64,000 nt of DNA from Escherichia phage 1-6af. The position numbers were made by a program, and so were the translations under genes. How positions within the stretch are numbered: position 1 is the first letter of the stretch; each line of letters opens with the position of its first letter. A model generated the notes under the pieces. It saw only the letters and a list, made by a program, of their open reading frames with translations. It searched no databases and had not been told where the DNA came from. The stretch lies in the sequence record OR983333.1. One strand, written 5' to 3'. Of this stretch, positions 31,912-48,642 are shown piece by piece.

Positions 31912-33225
31912 TTAGTTATTTGTTTCCATGTCAAAAGAGATTCCACGACCCGCTTCATCGGCAAACCGAACTGTACGGGTTTGAGGTTCTAATACTTCAG
32001 GGTTGTTGGCAATAAAGCGATCAGCGAGATTATCTACCACATCTTGGGCCACACCTTCATCAGTCCACACAGCCCTAACAGGTGCGTTGATATCACCAAC
32101 AGCAAAACCCTGACCAGAGAACTGGTGACGGCTAACAGTCAAGCCGTTTGATCGACCACGAGAAGGACTAGACATCCATTGCTCCATAGAATCACTTGTA
32201 ATACCAAGAGCTTCTTCAAAAGATGTTCTACGAGAAGAGCTTAGATTTCGTGCTTCATTTGCTCGACGTCTTGTAGGGGCTACAAACACCCCTTCAATTG
32301 CATTGTGTCGGTTAGGTTCGTCTTCTCTACCAAGCAGATCACCACCTGTATTAGTTGTTAAATTTGTCAACCCTTCAGACCAATACGCATGAATCTGACC
32401 GGAACCGTGAAGACTAGACATAATCTGAATCTCTTCATAAGGGATTCCAAAAAATCGACTCATGTCTCGGTTAACACAATATAGAGCACTTGTTGTATCC
32501 TCAATAAGAGCAACCTGACCTATTTCATTAACAAGATGACTGACTGGCTGAGGTGTAGGAAGGTATCGAGTTTGGGCCATATATTGATATGCAACAGATG
32601 GGGCTGAGAATCTTAACACTTGTGAATTAGGCCACTTTTTGTGAACGTATCTGATTTCACGACTAGAAACAACCACAGGGCAAGGGGCGGTCATAGCTAA
32701 ATACCCATGAGGGGTCATGAATAAGTTGTCAAGAGTCATCGCACCACGGCACATCATAGGAAAGTTATCCAATACCTCTTCGATAGAAGTAGGATAATTA
32801 AACATGAATTGGATACGAACCCCATTCCACTGAAACTCAATAATATCAGTGAATGTTAATTGAGAACCCCCAGCATAGGATTCGTTTGTAGCTTCAGCAA
32901 GAAGAGATGAATACTCAATATCTTGAGACTCAAGCCACTCTTTAACGTTACTTTCAACTTCTCGTCCGAGATCTTGCCACTGCTCATGACGGATGAAAGT
33001 ATTTCGAGTTCTTGGGGCCTGTCCTCTGACAATAAAGATATCAATGTCATGCGGAGCTGTGTTATTAAGCACAGCATCACGAATAGCCCCACCAGTGATG
33101 ATAGGACAAATACAGTCTGGAATCAAGTTGTTGTTAATCAGCTGTTCAATGAAGTGACGACCAACAGTGATATCCGGTTGTTGAGCAACCTTATCTTCAA
33201 TTCGGTTAATCGGGATAACAATCAT
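31912..33225 (-). CDS. Pol-beta-superfamily nucleotidyltransferase (CCA-adding enzyme / poly(A) polymerase-like head)
   Basis: GGAIRDAVL...DIDIFI NTase motif; Ser/Arg-rich C-terminal half; ATG 33225 overlaps upstream stop. Confidence 0.5.
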   Translation of the reverse strand: MIVIPINRIEDKVAQQPDITVGRHFIEQLINNNLIPDCICPIITGGAIRDAVLNNTAPHDIDIFIVRGQAPRTRNTFIRHEQWQDLGREVESNVKEWLESQDIEYSSLLAEATNESYAGGSQLTFTDIIEFQWNGVRIQFMFNYPTSIEEVLDNFPMMCRGAMTLDNLFMTPHGYLAMTAPCPVVVSSREIRYVHKKWPNSQVLRFSAPSVAYQYMAQTRYLPTPQPVSHLVNEIGQVALIEDTTSALYCVNRDMSRFFGIPYEEIQIMSSLHGSGQIHAYWSEGLTNLTTNTGGDLLGREDEPNRHNAIEGVFVAPTRRRANEARNLSSSRRTSFEEALGITSDSMEQWMSSPSRGRSNGLTVSRHQFSGQGFAVGDINAPVRAVWTDEGVAQDVVDNLADRFIANNPEVLEPQTRTVRFADEAGRGISFDMETNN

Positions 33226-33226
33226 T

Positions 33227-33784
33227 TTACATTTTCCAATATAATGAAGGTGGGTCGTAAGGGTCAAATCCTGTGATTTCACACAAGAAAAGATAAACCT
33301 TAACAGTTAAGTTAACGTCCTGTTCACAATAAGTAAACATATCTTCAGTGAAAGCATCCCATGCTTCCTCTTGCTCACCATAATCGCCCTTAAGTTCTCC
33401 TAAGAACTCACCCCACTGCTTCAAACCATGACCCCTTGGGCCACGTCTAGGGTCGCCTTTCGGATACTCAGGACTGTCACCAATACGGTCAGGTTTAAGA
33501 TATCGACTAAGACATAAAGTGTCAAAGACGTTAAAATTATATTTAATCAAAGAGGGATACATCTTCTTCAGAGCAGGTAAGTCGAAGTCAATAATATTAT
33601 GACCCACGAGCACATCTGCTTCTGTCAGTTTACGAATCCCGTCTTCGATTTGGTGAGGCCGATAGCCCCACCTTTCACCAGTTTCAACATCGAAGATATA
33701 AATACACCATACTTTAGTTATGTCATCGTACAGTGCATTACTCTCGATATCGAATGCAAACACTTTCTTCTTTTTCTTTACCAC
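33227..33784 (-). CDS. 3'-5' exonuclease (family-A polymerase exo domain encoded as a separate gene)
   Basis: Exo I FDIESNAL, Exo [14 protein letters not shown], Exo III-like YCEQDV, matching the T7 polymerase N-terminus. Confidence 0.8.
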
Positions 33785-35568
33785 GGTGAAGCTCCATCTG
33801 CTTGGTTGACGAGAGAAGCTGCATCCTCTCCATTAGTTAAAACGAATGGATTATCTTCATCAACTTCAAAGTCTTCCCTCTCTACAAGTCTACCGGTTTC
33901 ACTGATATACTTAGTATAACAGACACCTGTCTGACCGTAGTTGCGTTCTTTCAGTAATCGAATGACTGAGAGGTTCTTAGCTAAGCCGTCAGCTTGCTTG
34001 TCACGCTCAAAACCAATGATACACTGACACCAACGCATAAGAGAACGAGAGCCAGTGAACTGCACTTCACGTACCTGTCCACCTTCTTCATGAGGAGCAC
34101 CACCTGCCGGAGCATTAAGGTGAGATAACACGAAAGCGGTAAAGTCTAGTTCTTTACACATACCAGCAAGCTCGGAAGCAATCTTACTGATTTCAGTGTT
34201 AATCTCTGAAGGGGTTAAATGAGACACCAGAGCGGTAATGTTATCAAGGATGATGAACTTACACTGGTTTTCAACTACCCAGAAACGAATACACTGTTTA
34301 ATGTCTTCCCACTCATTCTGTCCGAAGTTGTCATACAAGAAGAATTTGTCTGCATAACGAAGTGCTTCATTACGCAAATCCTCCTCATCATATTCAACAT
34401 CGGGTCGGTGGAAAGGAATTGATGCTGACTTACCAGCAATGTTCTTAACAGACATGCCTACCTTCTCTTCCAAGAAGAAGCCACCTCCATTAAAACCATG
34501 CTCTAAGCACAGATGAGCAACCAGCTCGTGAGCAATGAGTGTTTTACCACTACCAACCCCACCACCAATTGCTACCACCTCTCCCCATCGAATACCGAAG
34601 GTCATCTCATTCAGAGTCTTCCACGGATATGGGATACCCCACTCCGCTTTCTTCAGAGCATCATCAAGGCAATCAAAGATTGTTACAGCTCCAGCAGGAG
34701 ATTCCCGCTTTGCTGAATACTTGAGAATGTTGAATAACTCTTGACCACGACCAGACAGAAGCATATCATTCGCATCCTTAATCTCTTTCTCCACACCGTT
34801 GTATGGGAAGGTTCCTTTAGGGATACGAGCAAACTTGACATGAGGGAATAAAGAACGACCTTTTGTTAAAGCTATCTCACCTGCATCATCGTTGTCCATG
34901 CAGAGCACAACCTCCTCAAAACCATTTACGAAGTCTCGATTACGAGACAACACAGAAGAGATTGAACCTGCACCGAACGGTAAAGAAACACAGGCTGGTT
35001 TAATGTTTGTTGCATTTGTAAAAGCTGTAAGGACATGGAAACCAGACATACAAGATAGCGGGTCTTCAAAAATGAAGAGCTTCTTGTTGTACACATCTCC
35101 ACGTTGAGCTTGTGCCATACCAAATAAATCTGCTTCTTTCACACTGCCGACATAATAAAACTTCTTATTATCTAGCAGCTTAACCTCGTAACCAACAATG
35201 TTTCCATCACGTTCGCGAGGAAAGAAGTAGCTGTCTGGAGTCTGACCGTCAGTTTGACTGAGGCCAATACGACACTCAAAACGCTCTGATACAGCTTTTG
35301 GGATTAAACGTCGAGTAAGCTCTCCCTGAGGAAGCTCTAAGCAATCATCTAAGACTTCTCTCAACTCTTCAGGGGATAACTCTTTTCTCTCGTTTGGAGT
35401 AGGTGTAGTGCCCTTTTCGAACACTTCGTAATTCCCACAACGGTTACAACTTCCCCACTCCTCACCTGTCTCTTCGTTACGGAAGAGAATCATGTGGTTG
35501 TGGGTTTTATCACGACCATGAGAGATACATTCCTTACAACCTGTGTCTCCCAAAATGATCTTTGACAT
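33778..35568 (-). CDS. DNA primase-helicase (T7 gp4-like)
   Basis: N-terminal zinc ribbon, [16 protein letters not shown], helicase Walker [10 protein letters not shown] and Walker B IILDNI. Confidence 0.85.
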
Positions 35569-35594: not shown

Positions 35595-35798
35595 TTAGTA
35601 GAACGAACGAATTTCATCCCACACTTGTTCCTGTTCTTTCCTATAAAAAGAAAGTTGGGTCTTGAACATCTCCACTGATGATTCAAAGTTTTTGGTTTGT
35701 GCAGCTTCAACGAAACGTTCATGTCGGTTGATTTTGCACCGTAGCATTAAATACTTGGCTTCAAGTCTCCGAAGAGCCTGCCTTTTCTCAAGATTCAC
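35595..35798 (-). CDS. hypothetical protein
   Basis: 67-aa helical ORF; a second overlapping frame 35534..35722 exists. Confidence 0.3.
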   Translation of the reverse strand: MNLEKRQALRRLEAKYLMLRCKINRHERFVEAAQTKNFESSVEMFKTQLSFYRKEQEQVWDEIRSFY

Positions 35799-36207
35799 TT
35801 TTCAGATACTCTGACCAGTCGCCAGATTCAACCAGAACGTCTTGTTCTTCGTCGATGTGATAAATCCAAGCGATAACAGTTTCACCTGAGTCCATCTTAA
35901 CAGCAATCTGAGTACGCTGATAGAAGCTGTCTTCAGGGCTATGTTTGTTGTAACCTTCCAGACGGTCATACGGACCTTCCAGACCTGCTTTGTCAGTAGC
36001 AAACACTTCTACACGAACAGGCTTATTATTATTGCTGTGTGTGAGAGAGATGCTTGGGAAGTAGGAACCACCATAACGGAACAGATCGAAGTTGTCTTCA
36101 GTCCAACCTTCACCAATTGACTTAGCACCAGCTCGGTCATTAACTAAATAGTTAGCTTGACCACGACGAAGAGAACCATAAGTTGCTACGTAAATTACTT
36201 CTGACAT
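35788..36207 (-). CDS. GGCT/AIG2-like (gamma-glutamyl cyclotransferase fold) protein
   Basis: N-terminal YGSLRRG and ...AWIY pattern of the AIG2/GGCT family. Confidence 0.65.
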   Translation of the reverse strand: MSEVIYVATYGSLRRGQANYLVNDRAGAKSIGEGWTEDNFDLFRYGGSYFPSISLTHSNNNKPVRVEVFATDKAGLEGPYDRLEGYNKHSPEDSFYQRTQIAVKMDSGETVIAWIYHIDEEQDVLVESGDWSEYLKSES

Positions 36208-36276
36208 TATCTATACCTTTGTTGGTTTGTTTAGTTTATCCGAACTAGCCTCCTCTTTCGAAGAGGCTAAAGCAGA

Positions 36277-36462
36277 TTACTCTGTAATAAAGATTTTGAT
36301 TACGCCACAGATCGCTGCACTTTCAAACACTGCAATAGCTTCACTTCCTTGAAAGAAGGCCACTTTGCCATCAGTGAAGTTAAACATATCAGCATCGAGG
36401 TCCATAGCTCGCATTTCACCAGCTGCATTGGTATCTTTAAACAGAACTTTATACTTATTCAC
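36277..36462 (-). CDS. hypothetical protein
   Basis: 61-aa ORF inside the ligase operon. Confidence 0.35.
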   Translation of the reverse strand: MNKYKVLFKDTNAAGEMRAMDLDADMFNFTDGKVAFFQGSEAIAVFESAAICGVIKIFITE

Positions 36463-36707
36463 AGATAGGTCACTCCTTTGTCTTGTTGTGCTTCAGTGAT
36501 GATACGTTCTACACATTCCATAGAATACTTATCACCACGTTTCAGGAAAGTTACAATTGCAGAGAATTGATTACCAATCATTCGCTGATTAGTAATACCC
36601 CACTCCTCACACAATTTACGCAACTCTTTACGAGAGCCTACAATAAGAGGCTCTTTTTGTTCTATCATTCCATTTTGTACTAGATCTTCCAATGAAAACA
36701 TATCCAT
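36459..36707 (-). CDS. hypothetical protein
   Basis: 82-aa ORF; start/stop overlap. Confidence 0.35.
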   Translation of the reverse strand: MDMFSLEDLVQNGMIEQKEPLIVGSRKELRKLCEEWGITNQRMIGNQFSAIVTFLKRGDKYSMECVERIITEAQQDKGVTYL

Positions 36708-36713
36708 ATATCC

Positions 36714-37910
36714 TTAGTAGTTTACAACAGTGCCATCATTCAGGGTAATGCTATTAATCTGCAACACACGACCAAGCTGACGATCACTAATTGGAGCATT
36801 CCAGCCAGAGCGGTAGAAGTTACGACCGCAGAAGAAAACAATTACGTTACTTGCTACAGTTGAACCGTTTTCAGGATGCTTGATGTTAGCGATGTAATAA
36901 CCACGACGCAGATTACGACGGGTGATCGGGGTGATCTCTAACCCTTGCTCTTCAACTTGCATCGTTTCAGGAACAGGTTCCGAAGATTCTTCAGCAACTG
37001 GCTCAGCTGTTAATGCAAAGTTCTCATCATCTGCTGATTCAGCAAATTCTTCTTCCGCTTCTTCAACAGGCAGTTGGTAAGCAACACGATAGTCAGGTTC
37101 AACACCAGAGAAGCTCTTAACAAACTCAACGATATTGTGAGTGTAAGTCTCCAGAGTTGTACCAGTCAGTCCCGGAGCTGTATTTACTTCCAGAACCCAA
37201 GCGTTATTCCCTTTACTAATCAGATCAACAGCACCGAAGTTTAAGCCCAGAGCAGATACAGCTTTGTGAGCTTGAATCAGAACTTGATCAGGAGGAGCTT
37301 CAGTGAATGCGTTAGAATAAACCCAACCAGTGTGATGGTTACGAATATCTTCACGGTAGCTTTCCAGTTCACGATATCCATTACGACGAATCTTCTTCTG
37401 AACGTAAGTGATAACACCTTCAAACACATGAACACGCCATTCACGACGTGGGCCTTGAATACCTTTCGTATACAGAGGAGCACTTGCAACACCTTCTCCC
37501 GGAAGACGAACGGTGATACCTTCACCAGAGTGACCAGTTAAGGTTGCACGTTCATAAACAATTTCGGTTCGGTTCCAGTTCAGAGCTAATTCGTGATCGA
37601 TAGTGTATTCAACAGTCTTAACTTCAGCCAAACGCAATGCGTTGAACGCTGCAATCTTGTTAGCCGCTCGGTTCAGAGCTTCAACAGGGTTCAATACGGT
37701 TGCACCACCAAAGAAAGAAGCATCATAACGGCGGTTGCCATAGTTTACAACAATATCACCAGCTCGAGAACGATAACGAGAGCCTTCTGATACCAAAGAC
37801 ATTACGTTAGCATTTAAGCGGAGTTCCTGAATCTTAGTATTAATTGCAGAAGTAAGTTCACGAACTGAATCGGAAGGGCCATAAGGAAGAACACGGATAC
37901 GAGTAGTCAT
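36714..37910 (-). CDS. RimK-like ATP-grasp ligase
   Basis: ATP-grasp motifs EWRVHVFEG and FGAVDLI...WVLEVNTAPGL; acidic linker and C-terminal extra domain. Confidence 0.75.
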   Translation of the reverse strand: MTTRIRVLPYGPSDSVRELTSAINTKIQELRLNANVMSLVSEGSRYRSRAGDIVVNYGNRRYDASFFGGATVLNPVEALNRAANKIAAFNALRLAEVKTVEYTIDHELALNWNRTEIVYERATLTGHSGEGITVRLPGEGVASAPLYTKGIQGPRREWRVHVFEGVITYVQKKIRRNGYRELESYREDIRNHHTGWVYSNAFTEAPPDQVLIQAHKAVSALGLNFGAVDLISKGNNAWVLEVNTAPGLTGTTLETYTHNIVEFVKSFSGVEPDYRVAYQLPVEEAEEEFAESADDENFALTAEPVAEESSEPVPETMQVEEQGLEITPITRRNLRRGYYIANIKHPENGSTVASNVIVFFCGRNFYRSGWNAPISDRQLGRVLQINSITLNDGTVVNY

Positions 37911-37912
37911 TG

Positions 37913-38137
37913 TTAGATACCTTTAAGTTTAAGAATTTCGTTACGAGTTTTTTGAATCTGAGCTTCAATTTCGAAGTAGTCGTTGAACGCATCGTTCTCT
38001 ACTTCATCGGATGGTGCATCAATCAGACCGAAAGCGAACGGATACAGCTTTCGCTGCTCCGTTACTAATTCGATATGAACTCCCATATAATACTGTAGGA
38101 GAGTGATCTTTGGTTTCTTAGGAACCAGATTTGACAT
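37913..38137 (-). CDS. hypothetical protein
   Basis: 74-aa ORF in the ligase operon. Confidence 0.35.
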   Translation of the reverse strand: MSNLVPKKPKITLLQYYMGVHIELVTEQRKLYPFAFGLIDAPSDEVENDAFNDYFEIEAQIQKTRNEILKLKGI

Positions 38138-38351
38138 GAGGTTCTACCTTAATGCCTTTGATTTTTACATAATCAGCAAGCACGTTGTTGATCACCGTTG
38201 GGAAAGGAACCTCAACCTGTGTTTCAAGTACTTGACCAATACCAGCTTGCATCCACTTTTGGATTGCACGAAGGTTATCACATCCTGTGCTCGTCATCGG
38301 GATACGTCGAGTAGTTACAACGTTATCCAGCATCATCTTACGAATTTCCAT
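38118..38351 (-). CDS. hypothetical protein
   Basis: 77-aa ORF in the ligase operon. Confidence 0.35.
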   Translation of the reverse strand: MEIRKMMLDNVVTTRRIPMTSTGCDNLRAIQKWMQAGIGQVLETQVEVPFPTVINNVLADYVKIKGIKVEPHVKSGS

Positions 38352-38353
38352 AC

Positions 38354-40384
38354 TTAACCTCTATTCAATGAACATTTAGGAGAATTACAATAAACTTGAT
38401 TCATAGAACCAAGCGTACAACTTTCAGCATCGCGCCACGGAATCTGCTTAAAACACTCTGAGCAGTATCCAAGGGTTGACCACATGGCTTTGGTGAAGTC
38501 AGTGCTTCGGTTTCCGTCGAAGCTGACAACAGTTTTGCGGAGAGTTGTTCGTGATTCAGGAAACACACCTGCTTTCTCAGCAGGTTCCTCCTTTTTTGGC
38601 TTAGTTGAGATTGCAAAAATACTGTTGCTACGTTTCTCAACATAAGCATCAACAACATCCTCCAGAGTGATGCCTGTCTGTTTCGCTGAGGAAGGTAATA
38701 CAGTCATACGACCAATCATATCTTCAGTTACACGTAAAGCAAACTCAGGACGACGGGCGTTTGTTGTATCTGTTGCTTTAATCCATACATAACCATCTTT
38801 GATCGTAGCATTAGATACTTTCTTCTTTACCTCTACAGCGCAGGCTTTACAGATATCTTCACCGCGAAGACGACTAAGTTCATCATCGAACTCATTCTCT
38901 GTTTTAACTTCACCACAGATTTCACAAACACCAATAGGAGTCTCCTCCTCTTCTTCCTCTTTAGGTTTAGTCAAACCTTCCAGACATTCAGGATGCCAGT
39001 AGCACTGATATGCGAAGACTGCTTTAGGTGCATCCTTCCAATCAATGTGTTTGTCACAACCACCACAATCACCATGAGAATGTGCTTCCCAGAATTTACG
39101 AGTGATAGTAACGCCATTCTTGTTGACGAAACTATCATTCATGTCAAAAGGGATATCATCATCAAAGTCAGCAGTAGTAGACTCAGGCTCCTTTTTCTCC
39201 AGAGATGGGTCAACAAAACGACCTGCTGTGATCACTAAGCGAACCATAGCATTAACTTCGGAGATACAGGATACTGTCCCACGGTAAACAATTTTAGGGT
39301 CTTTCAGGGCATCCTGATAAGCCTTAATATCTACGTTATGGACATCACCTTCGATATACTCTTGAGATTTCTCATCGTAGATATAACCAATCATCTTACC
39401 ACGAGAAGGAACAGCACCAGCAGTTGCATAAGGAACAAACTCATGCGGAGTGATTTCCACAGTCATATCGCGGCGAATATCAATGTTTCGATCACTTGCG
39501 ATTTTGTTTTGACTTACCACTGCGTTTCTTCGACGAACATCTGCCGCTGTCACTCCCGGCTTCGTGTCGTAGGGATTGCTTGTACTGCTTTTTGAGGAAC
39601 TTTGATAGTTGCTTTGGCTGTAGTTGTTCGAGTAATAACTGCCCCAACGATTGGCTACCGTAAAAACCGGAAGCTCGTGGGCGACCTCTTCAACCAGAGT
39701 CATGCCGTTGTTTGACATATCAAAGATATACTCTGTACCAACTTTACATTCAAAATGCTCGTCAATACGGTTCTTATGAGACTTAGAACGCTTCAGAATC
39801 CACATCAACATATCTTCTTCAGAAGCACCAAACCAATCTCTGTTACAACGTGCGAGGTGGAAAGGACGCTCTTCGTTACGAATGATATGAAGGCGGTTAT
39901 CAGAAGCATCATGCCAGATTAAGGTGAAAGCACCATCCAGCTTTTGAATAGTCTCTGCTGCACCGATAGTGTTAATAGAGTGGCAGATGTTCTCGCTGTC
40001 TACCTCGAAGCTTTTGCTGTCAGGTAACAGATCTTGGTCCATCAAGGTTCCATTATGAACCAGAGTGATGTTACCATGTTGGAAAGGATGGGCGTTCTTG
40101 GCGTTAACTGCACCTTTCGTTGCATGACGACTGTGACCAACAATCCATGAAGGTGCTACAGTGTAAGCTGTTTCACCAGTGGTGTGCTTCTTGTACTCAT
40201 CTTGTAGGATGAATGCGAAAGAAGGAAGAGCTTCTTTATAAGTGAAGACTTCCTTAGTGCTTTTACGCTGACCAAAGATACCGGAGGAATGTTGTCCTCG
40301 GAATACTCCAGCATAAAAGAGTTGGTTGAATACGTCTAAATCAGTGCTTGACAGATTACCGCCAGCTAATACGATGCCACAAAT
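38354..40384 (-). CDS. class-II (Ntn) glutamine amidotransferase-domain protein with non-canonical start
   Basis: Upstream of the ORF-track start the same frame encodes (I)CGIVLAGG...FRGQHSSGIFG...GHSRHATKG...HNGTL; the catalytic Cys codon follows ATT; no ATG/GTG/TTG between an in-frame TAG (40388-40390) and 40045. Confidence 0.65.
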   Translation of the reverse strand: MCGIVLAGGNLSSTDLDVFNQLFYAGVFRGQHSSGIFGQRKSTKEVFTYKEALPSFAFILQDEYKKHTTGETAYTVAPSWIVGHSRHATKGAVNAKNAHPFQHGNITLVHNGTLMDQDLLPDSKSFEVDSENICHSINTIGAAETIQKLDGAFTLIWHDASDNRLHIIRNEERPFHLARCNRDWFGASEEDMLMWILKRSKSHKNRIDEHFECKVGTEYIFDMSNNGMTLVEEVAHELPVFTVANRWGSYYSNNYSQSNYQSSSKSSTSNPYDTKPGVTAADVRRRNAVVSQNKIASDRNIDIRRDMTVEITPHEFVPYATAGAVPSRGKMIGYIYDEKSQEYIEGDVHNVDIKAYQDALKDPKIVYRGTVSCISEVNAMVRLVITAGRFVDPSLEKKEPESTTADFDDDIPFDMNDSFVNKNGVTITRKFWEAHSHGDCGGCDKHIDWKDAPKAVFAYQCYWHPECLEGLTKPKEEEEEETPIGVCEICGEVKTENEFDDELSRLRGEDICKACAVEVKKKVSNATIKDGYVWIKATDTTNARRPEFALRVTEDMIGRMTVLPSSAKQTGITLEDVVDAYVEKRSNSIFAISTKPKKEEPAEKAGVFPESRTTLRKTVVSFDGNRSTDFTKAMWSTLGYCSECFKQIPWRDAESCTLGSMNQVYCNSPKCSLNRG

Positions 40385-40463
40385 TTTCTAATCCACCTGA
40401 AGGGTAAACCCTTTCATCTAATTAACCTTTAAATTGTGCCCCTTTGTCAGAGGCACCCATTGA

Positions 40464-41567
40464 TTACAGCGCTTGTTCTAACTGATTTTCCAGATGGTCT
40501 GGAATGTACCCTGTGATATTGCTATCACTGTGACCTGACTCACGTAGTAAGTCAAAAATAGCACGGATACGTTGTTCTGGAGCGTGTCTTACTTGAGATA
40601 GGTCTGCTGTACGAAGCATAACCAAAATCTCTTGATACAAGTTGTTAGCGTTCCCTCGGACATAACCAAGGAATCCATAGAAGTCTGACATAAGACGCAA
40701 GTCAACAAGAACATCTCCGTTGGAGTTGGTTCGACGTAAACGAATACGACCAGACTGTTCTACTTCATGAGAACGACAATACAAAACATCACGGGCCATA
40801 CAATAACCTGAATGCAAATCCGATTCATCCAGATTGTAATCCAGAGGAAGGTAAGGAAGCATTGGGGCAAATCGTACAGTATTTAAATGCTCAACAAACT
40901 GATCGTTGCTCATATCTGCGTTATCTAAAGCCAGCTTCTTCAGCATCAAGAAGCGGTTAACCAGATTGAGAAGTTGACCACGTTTCCACTTAGGCTCGCT
41001 GATACGGAACTCAATCGAACCGTATTGGGCAAGTGGCAGAAGGTTCAGGGATGTATACTTATCCCATGAACGAACCAGACGGTTGAAGAACTCTTCACCA
41101 TCGTAGTTAAATGCGTCAGAGGCATTCATTACCTGTGCTTGTACCACTGCAAACGCAGGGCAGAAATTGCTACGGTAACGATGGTAGCCTGAGCACTTGA
41201 ACAACATCTTTTCGTAGAAGGTCCAAGCGAGAATGGTTTTCTTGAGGATATTACTATCAGCATCCCTCATATCCATATGAACGTGAGTAGAGCAACGCCA
41301 AGTCCCCTCGGCGTGCGATTCAGCTACTGCTTCACTCAGGTTGTTGATAGCGTCTAACAACTCCTGTCCGTTGTAAGGTCGTGAACATACCATTTCACAA
41401 CCATTACGCAGGGAACCATCCTCTGTACAATCCCACATATCTGCTTCGATATGATCGGAACCTTCGAGTTCAAGTTCAATACCGACACCGCACTGAAGTG
41501 CAATTGAACTATGCGCCTCAGTTAAACGTCCTTCTCGATATCCAAAAGTTTGCGCTACAGTTGTCAT
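40464..41567 (-). CDS. GS/GCS2-like carboxylate-amine ligase (amidoligase)
   Basis: GIELELEG and STHVHMD motifs resembling the YbdK/GCS2 family. Confidence 0.6.
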   Translation of the reverse strand: MTTVAQTFGYREGRLTEAHSSIALQCGVGIELELEGSDHIEADMWDCTEDGSLRNGCEMVCSRPYNGQELLDAINNLSEAVAESHAEGTWRCSTHVHMDMRDADSNILKKTILAWTFYEKMLFKCSGYHRYRSNFCPAFAVVQAQVMNASDAFNYDGEEFFNRLVRSWDKYTSLNLLPLAQYGSIEFRISEPKWKRGQLLNLVNRFLMLKKLALDNADMSNDQFVEHLNTVRFAPMLPYLPLDYNLDESDLHSGYCMARDVLYCRSHEVEQSGRIRLRRTNSNGDVLVDLRLMSDFYGFLGYVRGNANNLYQEILVMLRTADLSQVRHAPEQRIRAIFDLLRESGHSDSNITGYIPDHLENQLEQAL

Positions 41568-42181
41568 AACGAATCCACCAACGTAATATTATAATTGCTA
41601 AGGTTTTCAGAGATGTGATGAAAATGCTCCAGAAGTCGCATCGGTTGCTGACCGTAAGAGTCACGAGGTGCTTCCAGATCTACTTGTCCTACCAGTGCAC
41701 CTTTATAATGCACCTTACCATCCGTAGGGTTGATGTAAATGTAACGAGTAACCAATCCATCAAATTCAGGATTGAACAGACTGTAAACCATTTCACCAGA
41801 GATCGAACGACCAATCCCAGGAGCGTTTCGAATCTTGTTACCCATCAAACCCTTCGCTCTCTGACGAACAGGGTTGATGTGAGTCCAGCTTACAGTGTTA
41901 CCGTTATGGAACAGATAACCAACATCAGGCGATTCAAGAATCAAGGTTGGGTCGAACACTGGAATATTCATCGTAGTGTTTCGAAGATTCCCTTGCTCAT
42001 TCTTGTACCACTGCTCTACAACAAAGTACAAAGCCTGTTCTGCTTCGTGAGAGAAGTCATCGCTGCGGAAGTTACCGCTCTGCTCAACACCAATCACAAA
42101 ACACGGAAGGTTGATATTGCCTGCCCGTTTAGCAATCCATGTACCATTATAGTAATGAGAAAAATCAGCTACTAAGCTCAC
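41564..42181 (-). CDS. hypothetical protein (ligase operon)
   Basis: 205-aa ORF; start/stop overlap with neighbours. Confidence 0.4.
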   Translation of the reverse strand: MSLVADFSHYYNGTWIAKRAGNINLPCFVIGVEQSGNFRSDDFSHEAEQALYFVVEQWYKNEQGNLRNTTMNIPVFDPTLILESPDVGYLFHNGNTVSWTHINPVRQRAKGLMGNKIRNAPGIGRSISGEMVYSLFNPEFDGLVTRYIYINPTDGKVHYKGALVGQVDLEAPRDSYGQQPMRLLEHFHHISENLSNYNITLVDSL

Positions 42182-42190
42182 GATAACCTC

Positions 42191-42997
42191 TTATGCTACC
42201 TGAAGGAGTTTGATCTGCTGGTCAGCTTCTTTAACGTTGTTCCCGTTAATGATTTCATGAAGCTTCTCAATCGGAAGGCGAGAGTGCAATGCCATCAGAG
42301 TGGACATATCACACTGCTGAACAACCTTGTCAACCTGATCGTAAACAAACTTACGGTTTTCACGATCACTAATCCAGAAGTTAGACAGAGAGCGGTATTC
42401 AATACCATAGTCTTTATAACGGATTGCAGATGCTTTACCGTAGAGTTCTTTACGGCGAGTATCTTTGTCCATAATTACTGCTGGGAGAGACAGGAAGTAG
42501 TCACACAGCACACCAAGCATCATCTGAGTTTGCAAAGTGATATCCAAAGCACCAACTACACCAAGATGTACGTGACCACCGGCAGTACGAAGCCCCTTAT
42601 TCTGGGAAGTCGGGGATGGGTTCTTCTGACCAGTGAAGGCGTTGAAATCAGGAGTGCACCCGAAGATGAACGCTGATTCATTAAAGGTCTTCATCTCTTC
42701 TTCAGTGAAGATGTGAGAGCTAACACCAGGAGCTGTTTCCATGTCCAGTTTGTTCAGGACATTATTGGTGAGATCAATACCACGTTGCATGTTATCGTTA
42801 AACGCTTCAAAACCGCTCTGTGGGTCAATATCAAACTCAGCCAATACGTTGTCCTCTTGGAGACGAACATCCTTAGCCAGAGCGATCTTATCGTCCTTAG
42901 AGCAGCCTAATAAACCGGCTACAGAAGTGATGATACCATTGCTAGTACGAACAAACATTTCAGGGTCAGAGCCGATAAGGAATTTGCGCTTAGTCAT
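42191..42997 (-). CDS. amidoligase-like protein (second GS-like paralog)
   Basis: N-terminal GSDPE and GGHVHLG motifs. Confidence 0.5.
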   Translation of the reverse strand: MTKRKFLIGSDPEMFVRTSNGIITSVAGLLGCSKDDKIALAKDVRLQEDNVLAEFDIDPQSGFEAFNDNMQRGIDLTNNVLNKLDMETAPGVSSHIFTEEEMKTFNESAFIFGCTPDFNAFTGQKNPSPTSQNKGLRTAGGHVHLGVVGALDITLQTQMMLGVLCDYFLSLPAVIMDKDTRRKELYGKASAIRYKDYGIEYRSLSNFWISDRENRKFVYDQVDKVVQQCDMSTLMALHSRLPIEKLHEIINGNNVKEADQQIKLLQVA

Positions 42998-43961
42998 TGT
43001 AATACTCCACTAGTTCAGAAAAGAGAGATGAGATTGTGTTACCAACTTCTTCAAGAGTAAGACCGGAATCTGCTCCAGTTCTCTGAATCAGTCGGGCTGT
43101 AAAGTTTTGTACTGTAATGTTTCCCAACTTGTCATCTATTGTTTCACGTTTGTGACCATAACAGTTGGACCAGAGTCTTAACCACTCTGACATTGTTTCA
43201 TACTCGTCTGGGTCTTGATCTTTAGCACGAGCAAATCTTCGTAAGGCATCTTGGTTATGGTTACGAACATAACCATGCCCGTTGTCGCCAACACCGAAGG
43301 GGTTTTGAACCCATACTTGTTTCGTGTATTCATCAGAGTCAACAACCAAAGGAAGGAATGCTGCTGCTGACATATTGTTGTTAATAACAATAGAGGTGCT
43401 CTCGCTACTCCCATTGGCTCTTCCTCGTTGAGACCATCCACCGAAGAAGTCACGACCCAACCCAGCTAACACTAGAGCGATGCCGATGCGTTTACGCTTA
43501 AGCCACTCTTCCCTGTCTTCAATTCCTTCTGCTAGGAAATCCATTCCACGATACTGCCCTTCCAGAATGCTACGGAAGAGCATGAGTCCTGTGAAGATCT
43601 GATCTGCTGGATGCTCACGAAGGTTGACAGCAACACTATTCGCTGAAGTGATCGTAAATACGTCACGATAGCAAGACATGGAGTTCATAATGTCTGCTGT
43701 TTCAACCAAATTCTTTTCAATATCAGATGTAACATGACCATGAAAAGAGTGAGTCCAGTAATTCAACATCTCCAGTTGCAAGTTGATATCACGGTTGAAG
43801 CGACGATAGCGCCCTTCTTCCGTGATAACTTCACCATTAATGTCATTTACACACTGGCCTTGCATGTAGTTGTGGATACCGAAGCACCCACGACCTAAGA
43901 ACTTCTGTTCCCCTAAATCCTGTTGAAGATTCTGAGGTACGATCGTTGTGGAGATTGACAT
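42990..43961 (-). CDS. hypothetical protein (ligase operon)
   Basis: 323-aa ORF; overlapping start/stop. Confidence 0.4.
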   Translation of the reverse strand: MSISTTIVPQNLQQDLGEQKFLGRGCFGIHNYMQGQCVNDINGEVITEEGRYRRFNRDINLQLEMLNYWTHSFHGHVTSDIEKNLVETADIMNSMSCYRDVFTITSANSVAVNLREHPADQIFTGLMLFRSILEGQYRGMDFLAEGIEDREEWLKRKRIGIALVLAGLGRDFFGGWSQRGRANGSSESTSIVINNNMSAAAFLPLVVDSDEYTKQVWVQNPFGVGDNGHGYVRNHNQDALRRFARAKDQDPDEYETMSEWLRLWSNCYGHKRETIDDKLGNITVQNFTARLIQRTGADSGLTLEEVGNTISSLFSELVEYYND

Positions 43962-43971
43962 AACTAACCTT

Positions 43972-45171
43972 TTATTTTCCTAAAAATAATCCGCTCATAA
44001 CACCATCCCACTCAGAGGATGGAATCACTGAATACTCCGAACTTTGGTCCAGAGTTCCACTACTAAATCGCTGAACAATGTTGTAGATGTTGAACAGGTC
44101 TTTAGCCTCGGCACGAATGCCATATACTAATTTATTTGCTGTTCTTTCATCTTTAGAGACACGACGAGCAAAGTTAACCAAAAGGTTATCACATTTCAGG
44201 ATTTCTGATTCACTCTCTACTAGATCGGGGTGCATTACTGGCAAGAACATTGAGTTGTTAACTCGCAATTCTGCTGTTTCGTCGTTCTCATAATGAATCC
44301 ACTTAAAGTCTTCATCACGGAAGTGACCGCATCCATCTCTGTATGACTGTTGACGCCAAGGCACTTGAAATGCTTCAGCGTATTTATCAGCCATACCAAC
44401 TGTAAATAGCGACGCTGGGAAGATACAAGCATCCCAATCATTACCAACCAGAGTTGCTTTCGTTTCACCCAAGAGGTTAGTGTAAGTGCTAACCATTCGT
44501 GAGTAAACATAAGCCTGAAGGATTGTCCAGCCTTCAACCAACCATTTGTGGAGGAAGGTTTCAACTTGACTCTCTTCATCTTCACAATAGAAGGTTCGAT
44601 CTAACATCAAATAGAATAGACAACGATCAGCAGGAACATTTTCAGTTGCTACCCCCATAAAACCTTTATCGTGCCAGCGTAAACAGGAGGGACGATCTTT
44701 GTCCACAAATGCTTCCATAGCTTCCAGTACAGCACGAGGTGTGGTTCGATGTTCAGGGTTTTTGTCGTTCCAACGTTCAATGTTATTCTTAGGGGGCGTG
44801 TCTTCATCTTCATACGAACACCAACTTAAAGCTTCAGCTACATGCTTTTCATCACGCCAACTTCTAAAGCCTAACATCTTCATATGAGTTCCAGAGTTCC
44901 AGATATGCTTGATTTTACACATATCCATCTCTCGGCTTAACAGGAACTCTTCCCCATCAGCACTACGAACGTTAGATTCTTCATGCCACACTCGAACGTG
45001 CATATTCCATCCATGAGTTGCCTCATACATGTTAGGGTCGAAGTAGTCATCATATTCTTCGTCGTCTTCATCAACGCCACCATTATAGTTGCGAAGCTGA
45101 AGGAACCCATAACAAGGAGGACTAACCGTTAAAACATTACCTTCAGTATCTTCTAATGTTACTGGAAACAT
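43972..45171 (-). CDS. hypothetical Trp-rich acidic protein (ligase operon)
   Basis: 399-aa ORF; operon context. Confidence 0.4.
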   Translation of the reverse strand: MFPVTLEDTEGNVLTVSPPCYGFLQLRNYNGGVDEDDEEYDDYFDPNMYEATHGWNMHVRVWHEESNVRSADGEEFLLSREMDMCKIKHIWNSGTHMKMLGFRSWRDEKHVAEALSWCSYEDEDTPPKNNIERWNDKNPEHRTTPRAVLEAMEAFVDKDRPSCLRWHDKGFMGVATENVPADRCLFYLMLDRTFYCEDEESQVETFLHKWLVEGWTILQAYVYSRMVSTYTNLLGETKATLVGNDWDACIFPASLFTVGMADKYAEAFQVPWRQQSYRDGCGHFRDEDFKWIHYENDETAELRVNNSMFLPVMHPDLVESESEILKCDNLLVNFARRVSKDERTANKLVYGIRAEAKDLFNIYNIVQRFSSGTLDQSSEYSVIPSSEWDGVMSGLFLGK

Positions 45172-45182
45172 TATACCAACCT

Positions 45183-45545
45183 CTATTGGTTTTTAATTAA
45201 CTCAATCGACTTACGGATATAAAGAATATCTCGGAAGTTTCGATAGTTGTTCATAAATTGATGCTTCTGGAACTCAGCTTCTTCCAGAGCTTTCTTTGCT
45301 TCTGCGTAGTTTTTACGGGCAAGATGTACAACCCGCTCTGGTAACACGTTTGCACGATGGATTAGATACTTATGAGCTTTCATGTTACTTTGCTCACGAG
45401 CAATCTTACCTTTAGCAACCTTGATACCATTTGCAATCCAAGCAAGTTCTTGCTCAAGCTCATCGTTGGACATTCCACCGAGGTTTGATGCAACCTTGTT
45501 CAGAGTTTCAATATTAACGTTGCCCTTGATGGGACGTGTATTCAT
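45183..45545 (-). CDS. hypothetical protein
   Basis: 120-aa helical ORF, first gene of the ligase operon. Confidence 0.4.
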   Translation of the reverse strand: MNTRPIKGNVNIETLNKVASNLGGMSNDELEQELAWIANGIKVAKGKIAREQSNMKAHKYLIHRANVLPERVVHLARKNYAEAKKALEEAEFQKHQFMNNYRNFRDILYIRKSIELIKNQ

Positions 45546-45700: not shown

Positions 45701-45926
45701 ATTTCCTCTCGTTGAATTTAAAAAAGGACTCTCCGAAAAGAGTCAAGCTTTAAATACAAAAAGATATTACCCAATATCTGTGGATAACCTGCTCTTAAAA
45801 TATCTATCCGACGGATGTTCGAGGAATGTTCCTCTCCCTAGCATCGGCCCCATACGGGAAATATATTAAGATTAGGTTAGTTGAGTCAGAATAACTCACA
45901 TAGCCCTCCGAAGAAGGCTATAGGTG

Positions 45927-48468: not shown

Positions 48469-48642
48469 TTAGCAAGACTGGTCACACGGCTGATCACCGC
48501 ATGTTTTACAAATTACTGGTGAATAACTACAGGCAGGGTAGACAGAAACCCCATCCCATGTCTCACACCCACAATCAGGACATGTGCCGTTTGATTCCAT
48601 GTCATCATCGTCATCTACTTCACCGCCACCAAAACAACTCAT
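48469..48642 (-). CDS. small Cys-rich zinc-binding protein (57 aa)
   Basis: Below cutoff; ATG 48642 with AAGGAG RBS; CPDCGC ... CKTCGD..C pattern; hand translation. Confidence 0.4.
   Translation of the reverse strand: MSCFGGGEVDDDDDMESNGTCPDCGCETWDGVSVYPACSYSPVICKTCGDQPCDQSC

What the first reader, a model, noticed from the sequence alone, without database searches (positions are those of the whole stretch)
35788..45545. Amidoligase / GAT-II / ATP-grasp / GGCT operon: predicted amide-bond ligation system with unknown target
Nine to ten co-directional genes with overlapping stops and starts encode a GGCT/AIG2-like protein (YGSLRRG), a RimK-type ATP-grasp ligase (VLEVNTAPGL) with an acidic extension, a class-II Ntn glutamine amidotransferase (Cys1, RGQ..SGI, GHSRHAT, HNG), a GCS2/GS-like carboxylate-amine ligase (GIELEL, HVH), a second ligase-like paralog (GSDPE, GGHVHLG) and several conserved unknowns. 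Together these families make, transfer and trim gamma-glutamyl or isopeptide amide bonds. Related gene sets have been predicted computationally in phages, but I know of no experimentally defined product or target (virion protein tag, nucleotide/DNA adduct, or small metabolite).
Basis: partly seen in the sequence, partly recalled or inferred. Interest (0 to 1): 0.85.

Follow-up and report, generated by a model that had tools for sequence, protein, structure and literature searches.

The report
Phage amide-bond ligase gene cassette
This is the E. coli Kuravirus copy of a gene cassette first pointed out by computer analysis in 2009: three ATP-driven amide-bond ligases plus enzymes that cleave glutamine or gamma-glutamyl bonds. 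It is widespread in phages and made early in infection, but what it builds, and on what target, has still not been determined by experiment.

Summary
Window 35788-45545 (minus strand) holds 13 tightly packed co-directional genes. They encode a GGCT/AIG2 cyclotransferase, a RimK-like ATP-grasp ligase, a Cys1 class-II glutamine amidotransferase (GAT-II), two GS/GCS2-type ligases (Amidoligase_2 and phiEco32-type COOH-NH2_lig) and eight proteins of unknown function.

The window is a Kuravirus, 99% identical to phage FH3. The cassette is the phiEco32-type amidoligase system predicted by Iyer et al. in 2009. It gave Pfam PF14395 its name and is called a "peptidoglycan modification cassette" in later genome papers. 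No experimental product or target turned up in the literature I could search.

New details:
- The core order COOH-NH2_lig, X3, Amidoligase_2, GAT-II, ATP-grasp recurs across 88 loci, nearly always just upstream of primase/helicase.
- GGCT and a gamma-glutamyl hydrolase (Peptidase_C26) mostly replace each other. That implies a gamma-glutamyl amide is cleaved in the pathway.
- X3 models as tandem SH3/Tudor-like barrels.
- GAT-II has no synthase domain, only zinc-ribbon repeats.
- GAT-II starts at ATT, behind a conserved 9-codon upstream ORF.

I favour early-infection peptide or glutamyl modification of a macromolecular target. Peptidoglycan-precursor or small-metabolite chemistry remain live alternatives. 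DNA hypermodification looks unlikely.

The parts
45727..45744 (-). Terminator-like hairpin followed by a T-run, just upstream of the operon; the likely 5' boundary of the transcription unit
   Evidence: SU7 annotators placed a terminator at the equivalent position, upstream of the 120-aa gene.
45183..45545 (-). First gene of the block, 120 aa, function unknown (phrog_11370)
   Evidence: The SU10 orthologue gp91 was detected by mass spectrometry among 'early gene products'.
43972..45171 (-). X1, 399 aa, unknown and fast-evolving; a probable distant paralogue of X2
   Evidence: No Pfam or NCBIfam hit. Only 20 clusters among 1.84 billion representatives. Identity is 41-45% between Gordonclarkvirinae genera. 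hhalign f60~X1a gives 67% probability.
42990..43961 (-). X2, 323 aa, unknown. Invariant residues include C26-F-G, A119-D120, R130, E187 and Y231. It sits in the slot that Peptidase_C26 occupies in other lineages.
42191..42997 (-). Phage phiEco32-like COOH-NH2 ligase type 2 (GS/GCS2-superfamily carboxylate-amine ligase), 268 aa
   Evidence: PF14395 E 2.3e-8. 38 invariant columns across 7 lineages, including D11, E13, H142, H144, E200 and R202.
41564..42181 (-). X3, 205 aa, a core non-catalytic subunit predicted as tandem SH3/Tudor/KOW-like beta-barrels. R106 and G111 are invariant across 63 sequences; K160 and G165 are invariant in the 8-lineage alignment and nearly so across 63.
40464..41567 (-). 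Amidoligase_2 (GS-like carboxylate-amine ligase), 367 aa
   Evidence: PF12224 E 5.3e-8. Invariant E31/E33/E35, D50-G-S-L-R54, H95, H97, E186 and R188. The SU10 orthologue gp86 was detected by MS.
40385..40463 (-). 79-nt leader. It holds a hairpin (about 40457-40436) with one compensatory change between genera, then a 9-codon upstream ORF MKGFTLQVD* (40417-40388) and the Shine-Dalgarno AGGTGG. About 57 nt are 100% identical across three genera.
38354..40384 (-). Class-II (Ntn, Cys1) glutamine amidotransferase-type protein, 676 aa, with an ATT start. The GAT domain spans about aa 1-215. It is followed by a low-complexity linker, a beta-rich region and copies of a ~55-aa CxxC...CxxC zinc-ribbon repeat: two match the repeat profile and a third CxxC pair is visible by eye. 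There is no synthase domain.
   Evidence: Invariant C1, R28, G82-H-x-R85-x-A-T88, N96-A-H-P-F, H109-N-G111 and D128. Zinc-ribbon repeat family. SU10 gp85 detected by MS.
38118..38351 (-). DUF7195 small protein, 77 aa, conserved between GAT-II and ATP-grasp in Kuravirus, P59 and LAh_6; the Clew-1 protein at that position aligns at 22% identity
   Evidence: PF23825 E 4.7e-17; alignment A3.
37913..38137 (-). 74-aa protein, unknown (phrog_13464), specific to Gordonclarkvirinae
36714..37910 (-). RimK-like ATP-grasp ligase, 398 aa: catalytic module about aa 1-265, acidic linker about aa 270-316, and a C-terminal beta-rich domain (phrog_20552)
   Evidence: Invariant S128-G-x-G131, K173, D229 and E241-x-N243. 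SU10 gp82 detected by MS.
36459..36707 (-). 82-aa protein, unknown (phrog_8339)
36277..36462 (-). 61-aa protein, unknown (phrog_8591)
35788..36207 (-). Gamma-glutamyl(amine) cyclotransferase, AIG2/GGACT family, 139 aa, with the YGSLRRG and RLEGY motifs
   Evidence: PF06094 E 3.4e-17; phrog_2520 1e-44; SU10 gp78 detected by MS.
35595..35798 (-). 67-aa conserved protein that overlaps the GGCT stop and bridges to the primase/helicase gene
33778..35568 (-). T7 gp4-like primase/helicase, given as context: the cassette lies directly upstream of it in almost every lineage

Best explanation
This is the Kuravirus copy of the phiEco32-type amidoligase cassette, an operon made early in infection.

Shown here:
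- It encodes three ATP-dependent carboxylate-amine ligases with intact catalytic motifs: one RimK-like ATP-grasp and two GS/GCS2-superfamily enzymes.
- It encodes a Cys1 Ntn glutamine-amidotransferase domain that keeps the glutamine/gamma-glutamyl-binding residues but has no synthase domain.
- It encodes a gamma-glutamyl cyclotransferase.
- It encodes non-catalytic partners.

Inferred:
- The ligases build a short, glutamate-containing amide adduct (gamma-glutamyl or isopeptide, possibly extended by an alpha-linked Glu) on a cytoplasmic acceptor.
- The GAT-II domain either feeds ammonia from glutamine to one ligase or, like EgtC, hydrolyses a gamma-glutamyl amide.
- GGCT then removes a gamma-glutamyl group as 5-oxoproline. 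In other phage lineages the unrelated gamma-glutamyl hydrolase Peptidase_C26 does this job.

My preferred acceptor is a macromolecule, a host or phage protein or peptide. It would be recognised through the SH3/Tudor-like X3 subunit and the zinc-ribbon and beta-rich appendages on the enzymes. This would make the cassette an early host-takeover or counter-defence protein-modification system. The acceptor's identity is unknown.
For: - Families and catalytic residues.
- The core order COOH-NH2_lig, X3, Amidoligase_2, GAT-II, ATP-grasp is conserved across 88 loci from several phage families.
- GGCT and Peptidase_C26 are close to mutually exclusive: 37 loci have GGCT only, 33 have C26 only, 4 have both. 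A non-homologous replacement like this argues that cleaving a gamma-glutamyl amide is an integral step.
- GAT-II keeps the residues that hold the free alpha-amino and alpha-carboxyl groups of a glutamyl moiety (residue roles come from established GlmS/PurF/EgtC knowledge). Its C-terminal part is only zinc-ribbon repeats.
- X3 is a core subunit that models confidently as tandem small beta-barrels of the Tudor/SH3/KOW kind. These typically bind peptides or nucleic acids and are not catalytic.
- The accessory parts (X1, X2, the enzyme extensions) evolve fast and differ by lineage, as expected for host-interaction modules.
- Expression is early. The SU10 orthologues were detected by MS as 'early gene products'. 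The HP1 cassette is transcribed immediately on infection.
- RimK-clade ATP-grasp enzymes that have been characterised add amino acids to carboxylates of proteins or glutamate tails. Related R2K enzymes in phages are predicted to modify host proteins.
Against: - No acceptor or tag was identified.
- No small protein with a conserved C-terminal Glu/Gln or Gly-Gly is present in all cassette types.
- The SH3-like and zinc-ribbon parts could simply hold the enzymes together as a complex working on a small molecule.
- The ATP-grasp scores far below the RimK family cut-offs, so no substrate can be transferred from RimK.
- The only published hypothesis is peptidoglycan modification, and my data do not exclude it.
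- The role of GAT-II, ammonia donor or hydrolase, is unresolved.
Confidence: 0.4

Rival explanations
1. Peptidoglycan-precursor remodelling, the published hypothesis. The ligases and GAT-II would add or amidate residues on cytoplasmic UDP-MurNAc-peptide, and GGCT or C26 would recycle gamma-glutamyl pieces. The cell wall would change early in infection, for example to block superinfection or tune lysis.
For: - The hypothesis is attributed to Iyer 2009 and Hardies 2013 and repeated.
- The ATP-grasp also hits the D-Ala-D-Ala ligase C-terminal model (1.6e-3; PDB Ddl 1.4e-3).
- Stem peptides carry free carboxylates and a gamma-glutamyl bond, and ATP-grasp and glutamine-dependent enzymes are known to modify them in other bacteria (established knowledge: D-Asp ligase, MurT/GatD, LtsA).
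- Expression is immediate-early.
Against: - No Mur-ligase, MurT, GatD (class I) or asparagine-synthase domain was found.
- GGCT-family enzymes act on L-gamma-glutamyl groups, whereas the wall has D-isoglutamate (established knowledge).
- The model has no need for a Tudor/SH3-like core subunit or zinc-ribbon repeats.
- No muropeptide data exist.
- The cassette is linked to the replication module, not to lysis or envelope genes.
Confidence: 0.25
2. Small-metabolite pathway. An amine or amino acid would be gamma-glutamylated, as in the Puu, ergothioneine, butirosin or methylamine pathways, then extended or amidated, and the glutamyl mask removed. The result would be a peptide-like metabolite or re-routed nitrogen, that is, an auxiliary metabolic function.
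For: - The enzyme set (GS-like ligase plus a GAT-type hydrolase or C26 or GGCT) is the signature of gamma-glutamyl-masking pathways (established knowledge: PuuA/PuuD, EgtA/EgtC, BtrJ/BtrG).
- The GGCT/C26 swap fits this.
- Several genome papers treat the genes as auxiliary metabolic genes.
- In LAh_6 the cassette sits next to genes annotated as PRPP synthetase and nicotinate phosphoribosyltransferase.
Against: - No decarboxylase, oxidase, aminotransferase, transporter or other tailoring enzyme recurs in 88 loci.
- The core includes a non-enzymatic beta-barrel protein.
- The enzymes carry variable binding-type appendages.
- The accessory proteins evolve quickly, which is unusual for metabolism.
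Confidence: 0.2
3. DNA or nucleotide modification. The cassette would attach an amino-acid or amide group to a base or nucleotide, which would explain why Gordonclarkvirinae resist restriction-modification systems.
For: [quoted passage not shown]
- Sites are plentiful in the window: 32 EcoRV, 11 EcoKI, 85 EcoP1I.
- The cassette is always adjacent to primase/helicase and the DNA polymerase genes.
- GAT-II carries zinc-ribbons.
Against: - Nanopore native-versus-amplified comparison of Rembedalsseter, a Vicosavirus, showed only nicks and no base modification. Its close relative UFV-P2 carries the complete cassette.
- The window encodes ThyX plus dCTP deaminase, an ordinary dTTP route.
- No ThyA-type hydroxymethylase, 5-hmdU kinase, aGPT-Pplase or DpdA appears in the RefSeq annotation of SU10.
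- The cassette also occurs in many phages not reported as restriction-resistant.
Confidence: 0.08
4. A covalent tag or cross-link on the phage's own virion proteins.
For: GS-like and ATP-grasp ligases can form isopeptide bonds.
Against: - Expression is early, not late.
- The cassette sits in the replication module, on the opposite strand to the structural genes.
- The cryo-EM and MS papers on SU10 and the Bruynoghevirus Pa223 contain no match to my search terms for covalent modification (isopeptide, post-translational, glutam-, extra/unassigned density). This is absence of evidence only.
Confidence: 0.05

Closest known systems
phiEco32-type phage amidoligase cassette (Iyer, Abhiman, Burroughs & Aravind 2009, Mol Biosyst; Pfam PF14395 and PF12224; the 'peptidoglycan modification cassette' of RIO-1/HP1 papers)
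   Same: It has the same five enzyme families and the same gene order, and 95% DNA identity to the SU10/ES17/MN03 Kuravirus group that includes phiEco32. phiEco32's own X2, X3 and COOH-NH2_lig proteins are 95.7-100% identical. This is a member, not an analogue.
   Different: There is nothing essential. The window lacks a 69-aa gene that SU10 has between the 61-aa gene and GGCT. Details added here (X3 fold, the X1/X2 family, the C26 swap, the ATT start with upstream ORF) are not mentioned in the papers I could read. The 2009 paper itself was not available to me.
Pupylation (PafA ligase, Dop deamidase/depupylase, Pup tag) in actinobacteria
   Same: Both use GS/GCS2-superfamily ATP-dependent ligases that form gamma-glutamyl-lysine isopeptides, paired with an enzyme that deamidates or removes the glutamyl link. 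Here there are two GS-like paralogues.
   Different: No Pup-like disordered tag with a C-terminal GGQ/GGE was found. There is no proteasome link. The eraser here is an Ntn GAT-II, GGCT or C26 rather than a GS-like paralogue.
RimK / RimB glutamylation of ribosomal protein S6, and the LysX-LysW amino-group carrier system
   Same: The ATP-grasp belongs to the same broad clade. Both involve an acidic tail next to the enzyme and have a partner peptidase.
   Different: Scores are far below the family cut-offs (29 versus 143 bits for rimK_fam). No LysW-like carrier with a fixed C-terminal Glu was found.
Gamma-glutamyl masking pathways (PuuA/PuuD, EgtA/EgtC, BtrJ/BtrG)
   Same: These also combine a GS-like or ATP-grasp gamma-glutamyl ligase with a GAT-type (class I C26 or class II Ntn) hydrolase or a GGCT-type cyclotransferase. 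There is a weak NCBIfam EgtC hit of 2.5e-4.
   Different: The middle-of-pathway tailoring enzymes that give those pathways their purpose are absent. Non-catalytic adaptor proteins are present.
MurT/GatD and LtsA peptidoglycan amidation
   Same: Both carry out glutamine-dependent amidation of a stem-peptide carboxylate using a ligase plus an amidotransferase.
   Different: The folds differ: a Mur ligase with a class-I GATase, or an Asn-synthase domain, and none of these is found here.

Membership tests
phiEco32-type phage amidoligase cassette | COOH-NH2 ligase type 2 (PF14395) | tested here: met
   34 bits against a cut-off of 25, E 2.3e-8
phiEco32-type phage amidoligase cassette | Second GS-like ligase, Amidoligase_2 (PF12224) | tested here: met
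   33.5 bits against a cut-off of 22
phiEco32-type phage amidoligase cassette | Class-II GAT, ATP-grasp and AIG2/GGCT genes in the same co-directional block | tested here: met
   The same order is seen in SU10, SU7, EP335, Clew-1 and UFV-P2; in LAh_6 GGCT lies upstream of the block; in P59 no GGCT homologue was detected.
Class-II (Ntn) glutamine amidotransferase | N-terminal Cys1 nucleophile exposed after Met removal | tested here: met
   The start codon lies directly before TGT in all 8 lineages: ATT in Gordonclarkvirinae, ATG or TTG elsewhere
Class-II (Ntn) glutamine amidotransferase | Glutamine-binding and oxyanion residues (GlmS Arg26, Arg73, Thr76, Asn98, Gly99, Asp123) | tested here: met
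   Invariant R28, R85, T88, N110, G111 and D128 in A8. The mapping to GlmS numbering comes from established knowledge, not a computed superposition.
Class-II (Ntn) glutamine amidotransferase | Fused or dedicated synthase (acceptor) domain that receives ammonia | tested here: not met
   The C-terminal part has no Pfam or NCBIfam domain. The only conserved element is a zinc-ribbon repeat. An acceptor acting in trans cannot be excluded.
RimK family alpha-L-glutamate ligase | Score above the curated family cut-off | tested here: not met
   TIGR00768 scores 29 against 143.4 bits, PRK10446 16.7 against 331, PF08443 16.9 against 21. The P59 orthologue passes PF08443 only.
RimK family alpha-L-glutamate ligase | ATP-grasp catalytic motifs (Gly-rich loop, Mg-binding E-x-N) | tested here: met
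   Invariant S128-G-x-G131, D229 and E241-x-N243
GGCT / GGACT (AIG2-like) | Pfam model above threshold, with the YGSL motif and the conserved Glu | tested here: met
   63.6 bits against 22.8. YGSLRRG and RLEGY are visible in the sequence. Activity was not tested.
Pup-like tagging system | Small tag protein with a conserved C-terminal Gln/Glu, present wherever the ligases are | tested here: not met
   The C-termini of DUF7195, of the 61-, 74- and 82-aa proteins and of X3 are not conserved, and none of these small proteins is universal
Thymidine/cytosine hypermodification pathways | ThyA-type pyrimidine hydroxymethylase, 5-hmdU kinase, aGPT-Pplase or DpdA | tested here: not met
   The thymidylate synthase is ThyX (PF02511, 3.3e-43). 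None of the others appears in the SU10 RefSeq annotation. I did not run every window ORF through HMMs.
MurT/GatD-type peptidoglycan amidation | Mur-ligase domain plus a class-I GATase | tested here: not met
   No such hits. Whether the cassette works like MurT/GatD remains open.

The most novel reading that the evidence does not exclude
The cassette is a phage-encoded, ATP-dependent peptide-tagging or glutamylation machine. X3 (tandem Tudor/SH3-like barrels) would dock it onto a specific host protein, for example a component of translation, transcription or an immune system. The three ligases would write a short Glu-based isopeptide mark within minutes of infection, and GAT-II with GGCT or C26 would edit or erase it. 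This would be the first Pup/RimK-like covalent host-takeover system in phages.
Probability: 0.22. Interest if true: 0.85.

Novelty: already known. Interest (0 to 1): 0.45.

Why it matters
The cassette costs a phage about 10 kb, roughly 13% of a Kuravirus genome. Its five-gene enzyme core is kept in order across very different podophages of E. coli, Pseudomonas, Vibrio, Aeromonas and marine bacteria: at least 570 IMG/VR stretches and 306 sequenced phage records.

Its product has been unknown for more than fifteen years. The chemistry on offer is rare in phage biology: three ATP-dependent amide ligations plus glutamine or gamma-glutamyl cleavage.

Kuraviruses that plate on E. coli K-12 now exist (BASEL Bas86-94), and LUZ24-type phages are genetically tractable. 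The question can therefore be tested directly by deletion, muropeptide analysis, metabolomics and open-search proteomics.

Tried and rejected

3. Sequence searches of PDB with the COOH-NH2_lig profile, the ATP-grasp, GAT-II and GGCT gave only marginal hits.

4. Searching for a Pup- or LysW-like tag. In C26-type loci, small zinc-ribbon proteins with acidic tails sit between ATP-grasp and primase/helicase (family 13). Their C-termini are not conserved and they are absent from Kuravirus. I rejected them as a universal tag.

5. Homology of the two Bruynoghevirus genes upstream of COOH-NH2_lig to X1/X2 is not supported (hhalign probability about 1%). I treat them as positional analogues only.

6. 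A conserved catalytic C-terminal domain on GAT-II is rejected. Only zinc-ribbon repeats are shared.

7. The idea of dU-DNA or hypermodified DNA from the neighbouring dCTP deaminase is weakened by ThyX and by the Nanopore data on a Vicosavirus.

8. Literature. The 2009 prediction paper and the phiEco32 genome paper were not held. One broad search returned nothing useful.

9. I did not run the expensive genome contigs or metagenome scans, because the viral collection already gave ample diversity.

Full report
**What the window is**

The 9.8-kb region matches 98 phage records. It is 99.0% identical to Escherichia phage FH3 and about 95% identical to SU10, ES17, MN03 and the BASEL phages Bas90/Bas91. 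These belong to the genus Kuravirus (Gordonclarkvirinae), the phiEco32 group. phiEco32's own X3, X2 and X1 proteins are 99.0%, 95.7% and 95.2% identical. GC content is about 0.42-0.44 throughout, and strand skew shows that 12-60 kb is transcribed on the minus strand.

**Checking the observation**

Between 45545 and 35788 there are 13 ORFs on the minus strand.

| Coordinates | Length | Assignment |
|---|---|---|
| 45183-45545 | 120 aa | unknown |
| 43972-45171 | 399 aa | X1, unknown |
| 42990-43961 | 323 aa | X2, unknown |
| 42191-42997 | 268 aa | COOH-NH2_lig |
| 41564-42181 | 205 aa | X3, unknown |
| 40464-41567 | 367 aa | Amidoligase_2 |
| 38354-40384 | 676 aa | GAT-II |
| 38118-38351 | 77 aa | DUF7195 |
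| 37913-38137 | 74 aa | unknown |
| 36714-37910 | 398 aa | ATP-grasp |
| 36459-36707 | 82 aa | unknown |
| 36277-36462 | 61 aa | unknown |
| 35788-36207 | 139 aa | GGCT |

Five junctions overlap. The other gaps are 2-11 nt except a 79-nt gap before GAT-II and a 69-nt gap before GGCT.

HMM results:
- GGACT 3.4e-17
- Amidoligase_2 5.3e-8
- COOH-NH2_lig (PF14395, 'Phage phiEco32-like') 2.3e-8
- DUF7195 4.7e-17
- GATase_6 1.7e-14 on the full-length protein

The ATP-grasp is divergent. Pfam RimK (5e-3) and Ddl_C (1.6e-3) are sub-threshold. NCBIfam gives MptN 2.6e-8 and rimK_fam 6.6e-7, far below the cut-offs. PDB sequence hits to Ddl and alpha-L-glutamate ligases are marginal. The P59 orthologue does pass Pfam RimK.

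Alignments over seven distant lineages show that the catalytic residues are invariant in all four large enzymes.

**The GAT-II start**

After an in-frame TAG the sequence reads AAA ATT TGT. The only possible start that exposes Cys1 is ATT at 40384-40382, with AGGTGG 8 nt upstream. The TAG is the stop codon of a 9-codon upstream ORF (ATG at 40417; MKGFTLQVD).

About 57 nt including this upstream ORF and the ATT are 100% identical in Suseptimavirus SU7 and Nieuwekanaalvirus EP335, although the flanking coding DNA has diverged. A hairpin just after the Amidoligase_2 stop keeps its pairing through a U-A to C-G change. Other lineages use ATG or TTG before Cys. This looks like termination-reinitiation or IF3-sensitive control, but that is inference only.

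**Anatomy across phages**

COOH-NH2_lig is found by tblastn in 306 phage records, including Pseudomonas 121, Escherichia 93, Vibrio 22 and Aeromonas 11. X3 is found in 115 records.

Annotated loci of Clew-1 (Bruynoghevirus), UFV-P2 (Vicosavirus), P59 (Privateervirus), LAh_6, PA11 and a Vibrio phage show the same arrangement.

A scan of IMG/VR returned at least 570 relatives, and I analysed 80 loci. Clustering all ORFs gives a core order of COOH-NH2_lig, X3, Amidoligase_2, GAT-II, ATP-grasp. GAT-II and Amidoligase_2 each occur in 84 of 88 loci. The core almost always lies a few genes upstream of primase/helicase and the DNA polymerase genes.

Two cassette types emerge:
- **Type K** includes this window, the P59-like and LAh_6-like phages and a marine clade. 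It has an X2-family gene directly upstream of COOH-NH2_lig and usually GGCT, most often downstream of ATP-grasp (LAh_6 has it upstream; none was detected in P59-like loci).
- **Type Z** is Zobellviridae-like and includes PA11. It has a Peptidase_C26 gene in the upstream slot (Pfam 1e-16 and 4e-14), no X2, and usually no GGCT.

Counts are 37 loci with GGCT only, 33 with C26 only, 4 with both and 14 with neither. The X2 motif never co-occurs with C26. GGCT and C26 are unrelated folds that both cleave gamma-glutamyl amides. Their near-exclusive alternation is the strongest new clue that such a bond is made, or taken from the host, and then broken in the pathway.

**The unknown proteins**

X3:
- Iterated searches collected 64 homologues.
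- R106 and G111 are invariant across them. K160 and G165, in a YKG..VG motif, are invariant in the 8-lineage alignment and nearly so across the 64.
- AlphaFold2 gives pLDDT 87.1 and pTM 0.75.
- I read it as an adaptor or binding protein, not an enzyme.

X2:
- It has 18 homologues.
- The model has pLDDT 72.6 with a disordered first 60 residues.
- In the viral-structure library it matches only uncharacterised proteins of LAh_8, GAP52, CVT22, CW02, RIO-1 and LAh_6, two proteins each in LAh_8 and GAP52. RIO-1 and CW02 are reported to carry the cassette, LAh_6 is confirmed and GAP52 has the COOH-NH2_lig and X3 genes.

X1 and the X2 family:
- X1 has only 20 representative clusters among 1.84 billion proteins.
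- Profile comparison links X2 (Kuravirus), the marine X2c group and the P59 group at 92% probability, and links the P59 group to X1 at 67%.
- The two Bruynoghevirus upstream genes are not detectably related.

GAT-II C-terminal region:
- Beyond the amidotransferase domain, the only element shared across lineages is a ~55-aa CxxC...CxxC repeat in one to three copies.
- No synthase domain was found.

**Expression**

SU10 proteomics detected the ATP-grasp, GAT-II, YtfP/GGCT, gp86 (Amidoligase_2) and gp91 (the 120-aa protein) orthologues, listed as 'early gene products'. In Pseudoalteromonas phage HP1 the cassette is transcribed immediately on infection. A terminator-like hairpin at 45744-45727 precedes the block, matching the SU7 annotation.

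**What is known**

Secondary sources state that Iyer et al. 2009 suggested cell-wall modification to prevent superinfection for phiEco32. Duhaime et al. 2017, citing Hardies 2013, call it a seven-gene peptidoglycan modification cassette conserved in RIO-1, phiEco32, 7-11, PA11, tf, MR299-2, LUZ24, PaP3 and CW02. Genome papers merely list the genes. Only nine papers in the library mention either ligase family by name, and none reports an experiment. Other searches found none either. The primary 2009 paper was not readable here.

**Weighing mechanisms**

What is shown:
- three intact ATP-dependent ligases
- an Ntn amidotransferase-type domain whose glutamyl-binding residues are intact but which lacks an acceptor domain
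- a gamma-glutamyl-cleaving enzyme supplied by either of two folds
- a beta-barrel adaptor in the core
- early expression

From this I infer a ligation-and-trimming pathway that uses a gamma-glutamyl amide.

I lean towards a macromolecular acceptor, for three reasons. Non-catalytic binding modules are abundant and vary by lineage (X3, zinc-ribbons, the ATP-grasp C-terminal domain, disordered extensions on Amidoligase_2 in P59 and LAh_6). No tailoring enzyme recurs in 88 loci. X1 and X2 evolve fast. This is inference, and I put it at about 0.4.

The peptidoglycan-precursor hypothesis stays plausible at about 0.25, and a small-metabolite pathway at about 0.2.

DNA modification deserves separate mention. 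The BASEL study found Gordonclarkvirinae unusually restriction-resistant with no known mechanism, and the window carries many EcoRV, EcoKI and EcoP1I sites. Against it:
- Nanopore comparison of a Vicosavirus showed only nicks, and its close relative UFV-P2 carries the full cassette.
- The nucleotide genes nearby are ThyX and dCTP deaminase.
- No known hypermodification enzyme is annotated.

I put DNA modification at about 0.08.

A virion-protein tag is unlikely given early expression. The cryo-EM papers also contained no match to my search terms for covalent modification.

**Verdict**

The cassette is already known as a computational prediction, and the window is an ordinary member of a heavily sampled phage genus. 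Its interest lies in being a large, widespread and now experimentally accessible 'known unknown'.

Noticed in passing
window 40382-40463 (minus strand): The GAT-II gene starts at ATT. It is preceded by a 9-codon upstream ORF (MKGFTLQVD) whose stop lies 3 nt before the ATT. About 57 nt are 100% identical across three genera. A hairpin after the Amidoligase_2 stop shows a compensatory base change. Several GenBank annotations truncate the gene, for example EP335.
   Followed up: partly
whole window: Palindromic hexamers are depleted overall (677 observed against 1079 expected), and 14 GC-rich ones are absent. Yet there are 32 EcoRV, 11 EcoKI and 85 EcoP1I sites, while the BASEL study reports this subfamily as strongly RM-resistant with no known mechanism.
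   Followed up: partly
window 28298-28954, 31348-31902, 31912-33282 (minus strand): ThyX (Thy1, 3.3e-43), dCTP deaminase (1.3e-31) and a 456-aa protein with a weak CCA/poly(A)-polymerase head domain lie just downstream of the replication genes. ThyX argues against the dU-DNA idea raised for these phages. The role of the nucleotidyltransferase is unexplained.
   Followed up: partly
window 30909-31379 (minus); L007 9976-10446; L010 10667-11071: HNH homing endonuclease genes are inserted at different places in and around the cassette in different phages: between X2 and COOH-NH2_lig in SU7, between Amidoligase_2 and GAT-II in UFV-P2, and next to dCTP deaminase in this window.
   Followed up: no
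window 36208-36276: The window lacks a 69-aa gene of about 200 bp that SU10 and several relatives carry between the 61-aa gene and GGCT. This accounts for the two-piece alignments in the DNA search.
   Followed up: partly
window 48469-48642 (minus); L004 7111-7305: A 57-aa cysteine-rich, acidic ORF (CPDCG...C.YSP..C.TCG..PC) resembles, by eye, a 64-aa ORF that lies between the cassette and primase/helicase in phage PA11.
   Followed up: no
IMG/VR loci, e.g. L049 13624-13833, L081 13666-13884: In C26-type cassettes, 16 loci encode a 60-110-aa protein (median 69 aa) between ATP-grasp and primase/helicase, with an N-terminal CxxC...CxxC zinc ribbon and a long D/E-rich tail. It is reminiscent of LysW, but its C-terminus is not conserved.
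   Followed up: partly
window 29494-30096 (minus strand): A 200-aa protein has a ferritin-like domain hit (2.8e-7) among the replication genes. RefSeq annotates the SU10 gene at the corresponding position as a 'DNA binding protein'.
   Followed up: no
L006 16009-18792 (Aeromonas phage LAh_6): In LAh_6 the cassette is followed by genes annotated as ribose-phosphate pyrophosphokinase and nicotinate phosphoribosyltransferase, which suggests an NAD-salvage module next door.
   Followed up: no
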